NCBI RefSeq assembly: GCF_001677475.2
Contig: NZ_CP015229.1
Length of the DNA stretch: 64,000 nucleotides
Source: Escherichia coli
Lineage (GTDB): Bacteria; Pseudomonadota; Gammaproteobacteria; Enterobacterales; Enterobacteriaceae
Direction: 5' to 3' (one strand)
In this document: piece by piece, positions 6,001 to 9,000 of the stretch
How the letters are laid out: every line of letters begins with the position of its first letter
Position numbering within the stretch: position 1 is the first letter of the stretch
Position numbers: made by a program

Positions 6001-9000
6001 ACTTAAGAGACTATTTAAAAGAGAAACATATCACCCAGCTACAGTTTGGGAAGCTAACGGGTTTATCTCAGGTGCATGTAAGTCGAGTGCTGGGGGGCTA
6101 TGAAAGATTCAGCCCTGAAAAAGCATTACGTGTTGCTGAAGTAACGAATTTCGAGGTTACACCTCATGAACTCCGGCCTGATATCTACCCGAATCCAACC
6201 GACGGTTTACCTGTTGGATGTAAGGCTAACACACAAAATACACAGGAGTTGATTCATGAAAATCAGGCATGAGCACATCGAATCAGTGCTGTTAGCCCTG
6301 GCAGCCGAAAAAGGGCAGGCGTGGGTCGCTAACGCAATTACTGAAGAATATCTGCGCCAGGGGGGCGGCGAATTGCCCCTGGTACCAGGCAAGGACTGGA
6401 ATAATCAGCAGAATATTTATCACCGTTGGTTGAAAGGTGAAACGAAAGCGCAAAGGGAAAAAATTCAGAAACTGATCCCTGCGGTTCTGGCAATTCTTCC
6501 GCGCGAGCTGCGTCACCGACTCTGCATCTTCGATACCCTGGAACGCCGTGCATTACTGGCGGCGCAGGAAGCGTTGAGTACGGCAATTGATGCGCATGAT
6601 GATGCAGTCCAGGCCGTTTACCGGAAAGCACATTTCAGCGGCGGCGGTTCGTCCGGCGATTCTGTTGTTGTTCATTAAGTGAATAGGGTAACTAACAATG
6701 AAAATCAAACCGTTTATCAATGCTGGAAATCTTACTCCCGGCGAACTACGAGACTGGATCCTGAAACTTGCAAAAAATGCAGAAATTGCGGGTTGGGGTA
6801 CAGAAACTTCGGTTCGGAAGCTTCAGAGCGCAGAACTTAGCCTGCGCTCAGTTATGGACGATTTATCCCCAAGAATTAATTTTCTGGGGTCAGAGCAAAT
6901 AATTCGTTCGGAAGATCACTCCAGCGAAGTTGCGGAAGTTCTGAATACTCTGAGGATAACTTTTGCTGCCGTTCGCGATATTCAACGAACCATTCTCTCA
7001 TTGATTTCTCAGCTTCAAGAAATTGATAGTCGCATTCCTGACGGGGGTCATAGAGAGCGTCTTCCAGAATGTGAAGAGCAAGGACAGGGGAAACAGATAA
7101 GGGATCAGTAATACGTTTTTCACTTGCCTGGTATAGCAATCTCGCCAGCGAATCATAGCTACTGGGGCTCAGGAGAGAATCCCGTGAGTGATTTGTAAGA
7201 ATCAGGTGGAAGCGGGTGAGAACTATAGCCCTGCATGTTACCAGGTTAACCATGTCGTGGTCGTGCTGGTTAATTTTGTACACAGTGCGCATGTGATTTT
7301 TAATTTTTTGGCAAACAGCCATTAAAGACATGTCGAACCTCCTTTGGTTCTGTTGATTGGGGAATCACAGATTATATCCGGAGGAAGGTTCGACACCAGA
7401 TGAGGCAATTATGGTTAAGGCTAAAAACATGCCAAATCCCATGCCAAAAACTAAGGCAAACAATGAGCCTTATCGAAAGGTAAAAATAACGATATGGGAT
7501 GATCCCAAATTTAGGGCGTTATCTCCTCTGCCTCCAAGTGGACAGAGTTTGTTTATTTATCTGCTGACCAGTCCATTTACCGGGATTATTCCTGGGTTGT
7601 TTAAAGCCGGGCGGGCAGCAATGGCTGAAGAGTTGGGGTGGGATATCGAAGCCTTTGACTTAGCCTTAGGCGAAGCCATGAATCTTGGCATGGTGAAAGC
7701 AGATATCAAAGCCAGAGTTTTTTGGCTCCCGAATGCTGCGAAACACAATCCGCCAAACTCGATAAATGTCATTAAATCCTGGGCAAAGGCATTCGCTTTA
7801 ATTCCTGATTGCCCTCTCAAATGGGAGGCCAGGGAATCGCTGAGAGCAGCGTCCTACGGGGTTTCTGAGGCTTTGGGGATGGCATTCGATAAGGCAATCC
7901 CTTTGCCTGAGGATAAGCCTAAGGATAAGGCTAACGCTTTGTCATGCGGTATCCAGATAACAGATAACAGATATATAAACCCCACACATAACGCGCGCGA
8001 GAGTGCTCCGGCCAGTGAGGCAAATGGCGTGCCGTTGCAGACAGCGGAACCTGATTACCTGGAAGGCCTGAGCGAACCCATCGGGAAATTTCCGATGACC
8101 GATAGCTGGTATCCGTCACGGGATTTTCGACGACGGGCTGCGTTGTGGGGAGTGGCTCTGCCGGAGCCGGAATTTACACCTGCTGAACTTGCCGCCTTCC
8201 GGGATTACTGGGCAGCGGAGGGGAAAGTTTTCACGCAGGTTCAGTGGGAGCAGAAATTCGCCCGTCACGTAAATCACGTCAGGGCACAGGTTAAACCAGT
8301 CAGCAAGGGGGTGAACCATGCAGCAGCACCAGGTGGCACCGCATCACGGGCAGTTCAGGAAATTCGGGCAGCACGTGAGCAGTGGGAACGTGAAAACGGA
8401 TTTATCAGCGACGGAAACGGCCTGGAAGCTGTGGGAACTCATGGGGGAGGTTTATTCGAACCGCTGGACCCAGAAGAACGGGGCCGCACCATCGAAGCTC
8501 TGGATTGCACAGATTGGCGCGATGACTGAGCAGCAAATCCGGCAGGTCTGCCGCCAGTGCATGGACCGCTGCCGGGCGGGTGAAACATGGCCTCCGGACC
8601 TGGCTGAGTTTGTGGCGCTGATTTCGGAAAGCGGAGCCAATCCATTCGGTCTGACGGTGGATGCTGTGATGGAGGAGTACCGCCGCTGGCGCAACGAGTC
8701 CTGGCGATACGACGGAAGCGATAAATACCCGTGGTCTCAGCCTGTGCTGTATCACATTTGTCTCGAGATGCGTTCAAAGGGGATTGAGCGCCAGATGACC
8801 GAAGGGGAATTAAAACGGCTTGCAGAACGGCAACTGACGAAATGGGCAAAGCATGTTAGTAACGGCCTGAGCGTTCCGCCAGTCCGGCGACAACTGGCGG
8901 CACCCAAACGCCCGTCGGGGCCAACACCGATTGAGTTACTGAAACAGGAGTATGAACGCCGGAAAGCGGCTGGTTTTGTTTGAGTTGAGAAGTAATTTTT

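What the first reader, a model, noticed from the sequence alone, without database searches (positions are those of the whole stretch)
6698..7331. Convergent, mutually overlapping ORFs downstream of the ydaT-like gene
A 137 aa plus-strand ORF and a 151 aa minus-strand ORF overlap by about 236 nt. The minus-strand ORF has a textbook AAGGAGG RBS, while the plus-strand ORF continues the ydaS-ydaT operon. Either one is a shadow ORF or this is a real antisense gene pair, which would be a regulatory oddity in the immunity-proximal region.
Basis: seen in the sequence. Interest (0 to 1): 0.3.

Follow-up and report, generated by a model that had tools for sequence, protein, structure and literature searches.

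The report
Two real genes overlapping on opposite strands
Both overlapping reading frames are real, conserved protein genes that share about 156 bases on opposite strands in a prophage control region, and annotation software always drops one of them.

Summary
In detail: + ORF 6698-7111 (137 aa, "P"), - ORF 6876-7331 (151 aa, "M"), 236 nt shared.

ORF overlap alone is ordinary. The window holds 42 comparable opposite-strand pairs. Comparative evidence shows neither ORF is a shadow:
- All 30 distinct cassettes found carry both ORFs in the same register. They come from Escherichia, Salmonella, Serratia and metagenomes, with protein identity down to about 28-33%.
- Each protein is conserved, with a normal codon-position pattern, in its non-overlapping part.
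- Opposite the P core (6878-7033), third-position diversity collapses in both frames (0.62 to 0.39 and 0.65 to 0.35; p about 1e-9 and 1e-10).
- Synonymous-codon shuffles rarely keep the other frame open.

P follows cro or ydaT in the early lytic operon. AlphaFold predicts a confident helical hairpin. M is transcribed the opposite way, from the position that the oop antisense RNA occupies in phage lambda. A roughly 70-nt leader precedes M and is far better conserved than either protein. The same leader also heads unrelated small genes in other prophages.

Inferred, not shown: convergent transcription makes P and M expression mutually exclusive between lysis and lysogeny. Protein functions are unknown; there is no Pfam, PDB, PADLOC or Rfam match. 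RefSeq annotates only P, and other gene callers only M.

The parts
6698..7111 (+). Gene P, 137 aa. It is the last gene of the cro(ydaS)-ydaT early operon before the replication genes. The predicted fold is a helical hairpin (helices 14-63 and 72-111) with a disordered tail.
   Evidence: ORF. RefSeq annotates it as WP_000695003.1. HMMER against 1.84 billion representatives found 20 with E<1e-3 at 32-66% identity, matching query residues 1-112. Alignment A3. AlphaFold pLDDT 80.9. Shine-Dalgarno-like motifs precede the start codon in nearly all lineages.
6876..7331 (-). Gene M, 151 aa, all-helical, with the conserved C-terminal motif LPELRWSDLPNELF. It is transcribed against the early operon.
   Evidence: ORF. 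Full-length homologues down to 49% identity in Salmonella and Serratia. Homologues down to about 27% in L043-L045 and L141. Not annotated in the one RefSeq record inspected in detail; the hit table lists a single hypothetical protein plus ydaT under the match in each of the 21 RefSeq E. coli genomes. The gene calls stored with other assemblies do list it.
6878..7033 (.). Dual-coding core of about 156 nt. It encodes P residues 61-112 (loop and second helix) on one strand and M residues 100-151 on the other. The register is P pos1/M pos1, P pos2/M pos3, P pos3/M pos2.
   Evidence: Across 12 non-redundant pairs, diversity at codon positions 1/2/3 is 0.35/0.35/0.39 in the M frame and 0.33/0.38/0.35 in the P frame. 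Outside the core, position 3 is 0.62 (M) and 0.65 (P). Mann-Whitney p = 1.6e-9 and 7.7e-11. No stop-creating variant in either frame among 48 variants in the close set.
7034..7108 (+). Unconstrained C-terminal tail of P (residues 113-137). It still overlaps M residues 74-99.
   Evidence: Opposite this stretch, M shows a normal single-gene pattern (0.44/0.34/0.63). The P tail varies in length and sequence; for example, P in L006 stops after 110 aa. pLDDT is below 50 for residues 116-137.
7332..7399 (-). Conserved leader of about 70 nt just upstream of M. It contains the SD AAGGAGG (7338-7344), a local hairpin GAACC-aaagga-GGTTC, and an upstream arm GUGyCGAACCUyCC that is complementary to GGAGGUUCGACAU, which covers the SD and the AUG.
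   Evidence: The block is nearly invariant in 13 diverse loci and in 41 distinct leaders, including loci where M is only about 28% identical. Minimum-free-energy folds pair the two arms in every sequence (-20 to -32 kcal/mol). 87% of cells are paired, against 36-49% in slid controls. No Rfam family matches. There is one copy in the window.
7408..7435 (-). Promoter-like site for M (TTGGCA, 16 nt, CATAAT). The -10 hexamer is the complement of ATTATG at the start codon of the replication gene (ATG 7411). The predicted start of transcription is about 7400.
   Evidence: Consensus scan, 10 of 12 matches. Lambda has the same geometry, with CATAAT over the O start codon. This rests on consensus and analogy only. 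An alternative promoter inside the conserved block (-35 at 7399-7394, -10 TATAAT at 7376-7371) is not excluded.
6826..6849 (-). GC-rich stem-loop (GAGCGCAG, 8 nt, CUGCGCUC) starting 27 nt past the M stop codon, inside the part of P that does not overlap M. It may be the 3' end or a stabiliser of the M transcript.
   Evidence: A 9-10 bp stem sits at the same place in 4 of 6 lineages, with different sequences and z-scores from -0.9 to -3.2. A U-tract follows it in only some lineages (L005, L061, L043). This part is tentative.

Best explanation
SHOWN. This is a real two-gene cassette in which both strands code for protein. Gene P (6698-7111, +) and gene M (6876-7331, -) converge, and their 3' halves share DNA. 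About 156 nt (6878-7033) is under purifying selection in both reading frames at once. The remaining 75 nt of overlap is only the unconstrained tail of P. The pair is inherited as a unit in prophages of Enterobacterales. It always sits at the junction between the immunity genes and the early or replication genes. P always runs with the early lytic operon (after cro, ydaT or cox) and M always runs against it.

INFERRED.
1. M has its own leftward promoter at the start of the replication gene. This is the position and geometry of lambda pO/oop, so M is a protein-coding occupant of the oop slot.
2. In a lysogen the early promoter is repressed, so M can be expressed. Its translation is gated by a conserved leader that can sequester the SD and the AUG.
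3. After induction or infection, early transcription runs through P and then antisense across all of M and its promoter. Polymerase collision, promoter occlusion and a duplex of at least 236 bp between the two mRNAs (an RNase III substrate, as for oop/cII) would shut M off while P is made. M transcription would conversely damp P and read-through into the replication genes.
4. The overlap also welds the two genes together, so recombination in mosaic phages cannot separate them. That would make sense if the proteins act on each other or on one target.

The biochemical functions of P and M are unknown. My best guess is that M is a lysogen-expressed accessory or exclusion factor and P is its lytic-phase counterpart.
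For: Both ORFs are present, intact and in the same register in all 30 distinct cassettes carrying both families; one further cassette (L031) has a frameshifted M. Overlaps range from 158 to 275 nt. The pair is also present in all 5 loci fetched through distant P homologues; in L047, M is truncated.

DNA similarity to distant loci ends at the M stop codon. Yet the 59 P-only codons are conserved as protein and begin with ATG.

Coding signature (position 3 more diverse than position 2):
- M residues 1-72, p = 4.7e-10
- M residues 74-99, p = 7.8e-6
- P residues 1-59, p = 4e-7

Third-position diversity collapses in the core in both frames, while M second positions are unchanged. This excludes a uniformly slower region.

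In synonymous-codon shuffles, the P frame stays open given the M protein in 1-28% of trials per lineage. The M frame stays open given the P protein in 0.2-8.5%. The summed log10 values are -14.8 and -26 over 12 lineages.

P folds confidently, and its second helix lies in the core. The M stop codon position and the LPELRWSDLPNELF motif are conserved. Independent annotations list one gene or the other, and one phage record has both.

For the promoter and the oop analogy: and PMC7067206 on the oop position in another lambdoid prophage. For gene orientation relative to cro, ydaT or cox.
Against: - There is no expression data. Transcription starts, transcript ends and translation of either ORF are unverified.
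- The M structure model is poor (pLDDT 52.8), and worst in the overlap half. The C-terminal conservation of M could therefore owe something to constraint from P.
- In the close set (93-100% identity) selection looks weak in both frames, with dN/dS roughly 0.5-0.8.
- The promoter-like site is one of 3 in 2.5 kb, against 3.7 expected by chance. It is not conserved in position in other lineages.
- RNAalifold did not recover the long-range leader stem. Its arms are nearly invariant, so covariation cannot tell RNA pairing from a DNA inverted repeat or operator.
- L047 keeps P next to a truncated M, so P may not strictly need M.
- Nothing links either protein to any function.
Confidence: 0.7

Rival explanations
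1. Only M is a gene. P is a shadow ORF kept open by M's codon and amino-acid usage, and RefSeq annotated the wrong strand.
For: M has an ideal RBS and was the first of the two to show distant full-length homologues. The first search for P found only relatives at 86% identity or more. The P tail is clearly unconstrained.
Against: The 59 P-only codons lie outside M. They are conserved as protein, with position 3 more diverse than position 2 (p = 4e-7), an ATG and SD-like motifs in all lineages. HMMER finds 20 representative homologues aligned over residues 1-112. M third positions lose their freedom exactly opposite the P core. The P frame stays open in only 1-28% of synonymous shuffles per lineage. 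The P model is confident.
Confidence: 0.04
2. Only P is a gene. M is a shadow ORF that happens to follow a strong SD-like sequence.
For: RefSeq (PGAP) annotates only P. The M model has low confidence, especially in the overlap.
Against: M residues 1-99 lie outside the constrained part of P and show a clear coding pattern (p = 4.7e-10 and 7.8e-6). The M length and stop position are conserved down to about 27% identity. The M frame stays open in only 0.2-8.5% of synonymous shuffles of P. A leader with SD, spacing and ATG is conserved in front of it.
Confidence: 0.04
3. Both proteins are made, but the overlap has no regulatory role. It is a compact arrangement, or a way to keep two cooperating genes from being separated by recombination. 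The two are expressed together or independently.
For: P and M co-occur in every cassette. Other module types at the same site have convergent partners with overlaps anywhere from 0 to 323 nt, so overlap length itself is not fixed. Lambdoid genomes are mosaic, which is established knowledge.
Against: Convergent transcription across at least 236 bp, and early-operon read-through across all of M and its promoter, cannot be neutral if both promoters fire. Lambda oop/cII shows that antisense control operates at this position (PMC7067206 and references therein). This argument is by analogy, not from data.
Confidence: 0.2
4. The suppressed synonymous variation in the core reflects an RNA- or DNA-level element, such as a duplex-forming antisense region or a structure. 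On this view one of the two C-terminal halves is not functional as protein.
For: All three codon positions are about equally constrained in the core, as a nucleic-acid element would also produce. The overlap half of M is poorly modelled. A stem-loop lies close by at 6826-6849.
Against: Both frames stay open through the core in all 30 cassettes, against shuffle expectations. The core carries the most conserved peptide motifs of both families: DQIIRSADHS in P and LPELRWSDLPNELF in M. The M stop codon sits at a fixed place just after the motif. No Rfam match.
Confidence: 0.08

Closest known systems
Lambda pO/oop antisense RNA acting on cII
   Same: Both have a leftward transcription unit that starts at the beginning of the replication (O-like) gene. 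In both, the -10 CATAAT is the complement of ATTATG at that gene's start codon. In both, the transcript runs antisense into the 3' part of the last early gene before the replication genes. An oop-like RNA at the same position is reported for Salmonella prophage BTP1 (PMC7067206).
   Different: oop is a 77-nt non-coding RNA with an intrinsic terminator. Here the unit has a roughly 70-nt structured leader and a conserved 151-aa ORF, and the target gene shares coding sequence with it. I saw no resemblance between the oop sequence and the leader by eye; no alignment was run.
Opposite-strand overlapping genes olg1 and gene 10 of Pseudomonas phage Fc02 (PMC9936078)
   Same: Both are in the lysis-lysogeny control region of a temperate phage. 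In both, a gene that follows the cro-like gene (ner) in the early operon overlaps, on the opposite strand, a gene expressed with the repressor in the lysogen. Both Fc02 products exclude superinfecting phages.
   Different: No homology was detected. tblastn of P and of M against 50,697 phage records finds only one E. coli-type record. The host and phage type differ, and the overlap geometry was not compared in detail. No exclusion activity is known for P or M.
Antisense overlapping genes of E. coli O157:H7 (for example PMC9927249; reviewed in PMC7457138)
   Same: Both are long protein-coding overlaps on opposite strands in an enterobacterial genome that annotation rules disallow.
   Different: As I recall, without having read the full text, those are young, taxonomically narrow ORFs embedded in an older gene. 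They are supported by expression data but show little conservation. Here neither gene is embedded. Both have independent non-overlapping halves, both are conserved to about 30% identity, and the support is evolutionary rather than experimental. This pair is also an exception to the survey in bioRxiv 10.1101/724807, which found that long antiparallel ORFs are mostly not under purifying selection.
Face-to-face promoter switches of coliphages 186 and P2, and sar/ant of P22
   Same: Convergent transcription and antisense RNA are used there to make lytic and lysogenic expression mutually exclusive. This comparison rests on my own knowledge.
   Different: In those systems the overlap covers 5' regions or a small RNA, not about 156 nt of doubly constrained coding sequence at the 3' ends.

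Membership tests
Shadow ORF (non-coding antisense ORF of a real gene) | No protein-level conservation outside the region opposite the real gene | tested here: not met
   P residues 1-59 and M residues 1-99 are each conserved, with position 3 more diverse than position 2.
Shadow ORF (non-coding antisense ORF of a real gene) | The frame is interrupted by stop codons in diverged relatives, and the real gene's synonymous sites stay free | tested here: not met
   Both frames are open in all 30 cassettes. Third-position diversity falls from 0.62 to 0.39 (M) and from 0.65 to 0.35 (P) in the core.
Lambda oop-type antisense unit | Leftward promoter at the start of the replication gene, with the transcript antisense to the 3' end of the upstream early gene | tested here: inconclusive
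   A promoter-like site has the same geometry as lambda pO. It rests on a consensus match only and is not conserved in position across lineages.
Lambda oop-type antisense unit | Short non-coding RNA ending at an intrinsic terminator | tested here: not met
   A conserved 151-aa ORF with an SD follows the leader. No terminator lies between the leader and the ORF.
Lambda oop-type antisense unit | RNase III-dependent down-regulation of the sense gene | not testable with these tools
   This needs an rnc mutant and RNA measurements.
Functional antisense overlapping gene pair (dual coding) | Purifying selection in both frames of the shared sequence | tested here: met
   site-class diversity and synonymous shuffles.
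Functional antisense overlapping gene pair (dual coding) | Both products translated | not testable with these tools
   An SD and ATG are present for both. There are no expression data.
Type I toxin-antitoxin | Small hydrophobic toxin (under about 60 aa) plus a non-coding antisense RNA | tested here: not met
   The proteins are 137 and 151 aa. By eye, neither sequence shows a hydrophobic membrane-spanning stretch; no membrane-segment predictor was run.
Type II toxin-antitoxin or a known defence system | Homology to known toxin, antitoxin or defence families, in a co-directional operon | tested here: not met
   No significant PADLOC, Pfam, NCBIfam or PDB match. The genes are convergent.
Known RNA leader or riboswitch (Rfam) | Match to an Rfam covariance model | tested here: not met
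   Only chance-level hits, E>1 and far below the gathering scores.

The most novel reading that the evidence does not exclude
P and M are an interacting pair: a lysogen-expressed effector and its lytic-phase partner. Their genes are fused tail-to-tail into one doubly coded cassette, so that mosaic recombination cannot separate them and antisense transcription makes them mutually exclusive. The cassette is one of many alternative cargoes of a previously undescribed hypervariable slot at the oop position of lambdoid prophages. All cargoes are headed by the same leader of about 70 nt, which sequesters the SD and AUG and would be a shared translational or transcriptional gate for lysogen-expressed accessory genes.
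Probability: 0.25. Interest if true: 0.8.

Novelty: new variant of a known kind. Interest (0 to 1): 0.6.

Why it matters
Long antisense protein-coding overlaps in bacteria and their phages are disputed. Most candidates are young and show no purifying selection. This pair gives an evolutionary case for dual coding without expression data: two protein families, each with an independent half, share about 156 nt that is constrained in both frames, out to about 30% identity.

It also exposes a systematic annotation blind spot. RefSeq lists only P and other gene callers only M, because of overlap limits.

It points to an unstudied control point next to the immunity region of lambdoid prophages: a protein-coding unit in the oop position, and a conserved leader that heads many unrelated small genes.

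The pair is easy to test, because each gene has a private region where the other cannot be hit.

Tried and rejected
- Shadow-ORF explanations, in either direction, were rejected.
- Function by homology led nowhere. Pfam, PHROGs (only function-unknown phrog_37051 for P), NCBIfam, PADLOC and PDB sequence profiles gave nothing significant.
- Fold search of the P model against PDB gave only generic helical hairpins such as FadA, the LSD1 tower and Rad50 coiled coil, all with E>0.1. The M model was too poor to search.
- Rfam has no family for the leader or the overlap.
- RNAalifold on 29 leaders returned only two short local hairpins. My hand-drawn long-range stem is 87% paired but nearly invariant, so RNA pairing versus a DNA operator stays open.
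- The close set of 23 sequences at 93-100% identity was too similar to separate the frames.
- The search for related loci with the diverse P alignment failed because no conserved 7-10 column stretch exists.
- hhalign of M against the 152-aa cargo family was negative (probability 1.8%). P against that family's partner was only suggestive (probability 79%, E = 1.5e-5, N-terminus only).
- The Silpe et al. 2023 small-protein modules (PMC10432266) turned out to concern a different locus.
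Full report
THE OBSERVATION

The window has a + ORF at 6698-7111 (ATG, 137 aa; called P here) and a - ORF at 6876-7331 (ATG, 151 aa; called M here). They share 236 nt. M is preceded by AAGGAGG, then 6 nt, then ATG. P starts 20 nt after ydaT (6256-6678, PF06254, a CII-like activator by PHROGs).

The neighbourhood is a lambdoid immunity region:
- cI-like repressor, 5428-5889 (-)
- cro/ydaS-like gene, 5991-6272 (+)
- ydaT
- P and M
- a DnaT-like replication gene, then a lambda-P-like gene

The overlap by itself is not remarkable. The window contains 42 opposite-strand ORF pairs of at least 120 aa sharing at least 150 nt.

WHAT ANNOTATORS DO

The window region 6600-7400 matched in full in 21 complete RefSeq E. 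coli genomes, at 96-99.6% identity. The hit table lists one hypothetical protein and ydaT under each match. In RM9088, the one record inspected in detail, that protein is P (WP_000695003.1) and M is absent. The gene calls stored with Logan, NCBI-GenBank and JGI assemblies list M and never P. One phage record (PP818812) lists both. From my own knowledge, Prodigal forbids opposite-strand overlaps above 200 nt, which would explain this either/or behaviour.

BOTH ORFS ARE CONSERVED EVERYWHERE THE CASSETTE OCCURS

M has full-length homologues of 151 aa down to 49% identity in Salmonella and Serratia. They lie in different prophage backgrounds.

DNA similarity between the window and those loci runs from about 75 nt upstream of the M ATG to the M stop codon, and then ends. 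Even so, the antisense frame in the same register is open in every one of them. It starts with ATG about 180 nt beyond the M stop. Its non-overlapping 59 residues are conserved as protein (KP.INAG.L.P.EL..W ... L.SAE.SLR.V..DL..RI).

An exhaustive HMMER search with P found 20 representative proteins (32-66% identity, 117-175 aa). They align to P residues 1-112 (alignment A3). I fetched five loci through the most distant of these. Four carry an M homologue antisense in the same register, at about 27-30% identity to the window's M. One (L047) carries a truncated M (alignment A4).

In total, 30 distinct cassettes carry both families. Overlaps are 158-275 nt, and 236 nt in 23 of them. All use the register P pos1/M pos1, P pos2/M pos3, P pos3/M pos2. 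One further cassette, L031, has a 1-nt deletion in M.

SELECTION ANALYSIS

Twelve non-redundant pairs were compared. The table gives mean pairwise diversity at codon positions 1/2/3.

| Region | Pos 1 | Pos 2 | Pos 3 |
|---|---|---|---|
| M residues 1-72 | 0.51 | 0.35 | 0.61 |
| M residues 74-99 (opposite the P tail) | 0.44 | 0.34 | 0.63 |
| M residues 100-151 (opposite the P core) | 0.35 | 0.35 | 0.39 |
| P residues 1-59 | 0.53 | 0.43 | 0.65 |
| P residues 61-112 | 0.33 | 0.38 | 0.35 |

- Position 3 is more diverse than position 2 in each private region (p = 4.7e-10, 7.8e-6 and 4e-7).
- The drop in position-3 diversity inside the core is significant in both frames (p = 1.6e-9 for M and 7.7e-11 for P).
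- M position 2 is unchanged, so the core is not simply a slower region.
- When M's codons are redrawn synonymously, the P frame stays open across the overlap in 1-28% of trials per lineage.
- When P's codons are redrawn, the M frame stays open in 0.2-8.5% of trials. The summed log10 values are -14.8 and -26.
- The 23 close relatives (93-100% identity) were too similar to be decisive. However, none of 48 variants in the overlap creates a stop codon in either frame, whereas control frames in the flanks do acquire stops.

Conclusion: about 156 nt (6878-7033) is doubly coding. The last 25 codons of P are an unconstrained tail of variable length.

THE PROTEINS

P is predicted with confidence (pLDDT 80.9) as a long helical hairpin, with helices 14-63 and 72-111 and a disordered tail. 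The second helix is encoded in the core. Foldseek finds only generic hairpins.

M is all-helical but poorly modelled (pLDDT 52.8), and worst in the overlap half. Its most conserved motif is the C-terminal LPELRWSDLPNELF.

By eye, neither sequence shows a membrane-spanning stretch; no membrane-segment predictor was run. Neither protein matches Pfam, NCBIfam, PADLOC or PDB sequences. P is the function-unknown phrog_37051.

THE LEADER AND THE SLOT

The roughly 70 nt before the M ATG (7332-7399) is far better conserved than either protein: TGGTGyCGAACCTyCC ... AGAACCrAAGGAGGTTCGACATG.

Every sequence folds so that the 5' arm pairs with the SD and AUG, at -20 to -32 kcal/mol. With that structure imposed, 87% of cells pair, against 36-49% in slid controls. 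One inner pair switches between U-A (14 sequences) and G-C (12 sequences). The arms are almost invariant, and RNAalifold does not recover the stem. RNA structure therefore cannot be separated from a DNA inverted repeat or operator. There is no Rfam match.

An exact search for the last 22 nt of the leader found 90 viral contigs and 2 species genomes, Izhakiella and Xenorhabdus. Of 73 distinct cassettes, 30 carry M. The rest carry unrelated cargo ORFs behind the same leader:
- a 97-aa family (phrog_4753)
- two 83-aa families, one of them BssS-like (PF13991)
- a 152/156-aa family
- several single examples

The leader therefore heads a variable leftward gene slot.

Some other modules also show a convergent + ORF overlapping the cargo by 167-323 nt. 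In E. coli F9792 (L002) the partners merely abut. The + partner of the 152-aa cargo may share P's N-terminal region (hhalign probability 79%). M and the 152-aa cargo show no relationship.

RELATION TO LAMBDA

- In lambda, the hexamer CATAAT is the complement of ATTATG at the O start codon. From my own knowledge it is the pO -10 hexamer, and oop starts 7 nt downstream of it.
- In the window, the best promoter-like site upstream of M (TTGGCA, 16 nt, CATAAT; 7435-7408) has the same geometry.
- Its CATAAT is the complement of ATTATG at the replication gene's ATG (7411). The predicted start of transcription is near 7400, and the conserved block begins at 7399.
- An oop-like RNA at this position is reported for another lambdoid prophage (PMC7067206).
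- The site is only a consensus match, and other lineages lack an equally placed one.
- A promoter inside the block (-35 TTGGTG, 17 nt, TATnnT) is an alternative.
- A GC-rich stem-loop 27 nt past the M stop (6826-6849) recurs in 4 of 6 lineages. It may mark the M 3' end.

MECHANISM

Shown: the cassette codes on both strands, the pair is co-inherited, and its orientation relative to the early operon is fixed.

Inferred: M is expressed from its own promoter when the early operon is repressed, and is gated by the leader. Early transcription through P, and antisense through M and its promoter, then silences M by collision, occlusion and RNA duplex formation, as with oop/cII. M transcription in turn damps P and entry into the replication genes. 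The overlap also prevents recombination from separating the two genes.

The closest architectural parallel is olg1/gene 10 of Pseudomonas phage Fc02. There, opposite-strand overlapping genes in the immunity region both confer superinfection exclusion (PMC9936078). No homology to it was detected.

NOVELTY AND VERDICT

Antisense overlapping genes and antisense control at this phage position are both known kinds. A deeply conserved, doubly constrained tail-to-tail pair of two protein families in the oop slot, plus the shared leader, did not turn up in my four full-text literature searches. It also runs against the general finding that long antiparallel ORFs are not under purifying selection (bioRxiv 10.1101/724807).

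I rate it a new variant of a known kind, with interest 0.6. Dual coding is well supported (about 0.85). The regulatory toggle is plausible but untested (about 0.4).

Noticed in passing
window 7332-7399 (- strand); loci L048-L139: The roughly 70-nt leader of M also heads unrelated cargo ORFs: a 97-aa family (phrog_4753), 83 aa, an 83-aa BssS family, 152/156 aa, and 72-88 aa singles. It occurs in 90 viral contigs and in Izhakiella and Xenorhabdus genomes. The window-type leader is in 56 of 5426 complete E. coli genomes. This looks like a variable gene slot with a conserved head.
   Followed up: partly
window 7357-7621: The start of the DnaT-like replication gene is called inconsistently. RefSeq starts it at the equivalent of 7621. 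The calls stored with other assemblies start it at the ATG at 7411, which has GAGG upstream. The longest ORF starts at TTG 7357. The 7411 start leaves only 79 nt between it and M, all of it the conserved leader.
   Followed up: partly
window 6249-6266: TTGATTcatgaaAATCAg spans the ydaS/ydaT junction. It matches the YdaT operator TTGATT-N6-AATCAA described for prophage CP-933P (PMC9986795). The inner inverted repeat of the M leader in this window is GTGATT-cccc-AATCAA, with similar half-sites but a 4-nt spacer.
   Followed up: no
L047 145-1221: Two cassettes lie in tandem. An intact P sits with an M remnant that keeps only the C-terminal 70 residues. A second convergent pair follows: a 169/181-aa + gene (phrog_8304) and a 152-aa leader-headed - gene, overlapping by 323 nt. 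The second pair is conserved in L048, L105 and L115.
   Followed up: partly
L002 3092-3640 (E. coli F9792); L068, L091: An alternative module occupies the same site. A + gene of about 98 aa (motif RIARNVAWY) meets a leader-headed - gene. In F9792 the two stop codons abut. In two other contigs the related + gene overlaps a 72- or 75-aa cargo by 167-176 nt.
   Followed up: no
L035 (PP818812, Actinobacillus phage vB_Apl-pPE4): The only isolate-phage record with the pair is about 97% identical to the E. coli prophage locus and has a Rac-like gene set (kil, ydaT, DicA-like). The stated Actinobacillus host looks doubtful.
   Followed up: no
window 6826-6849: A GC-rich stem-loop lies inside the P coding region, 27 nt past the M stop codon. 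It recurs with different sequences in 4 of 6 lineages, and a U-tract follows it in only some.
   Followed up: partly
window, e.g. 1473-1994/1420-1968, 17334-17717/17264-17656, 54453-54860/54229-54642: 41 other opposite-strand ORF pairs (at least 120 aa, sharing at least 150 nt) exist in the window. Most are nested in long genes and are presumably shadows. None was examined.
   Followed up: no
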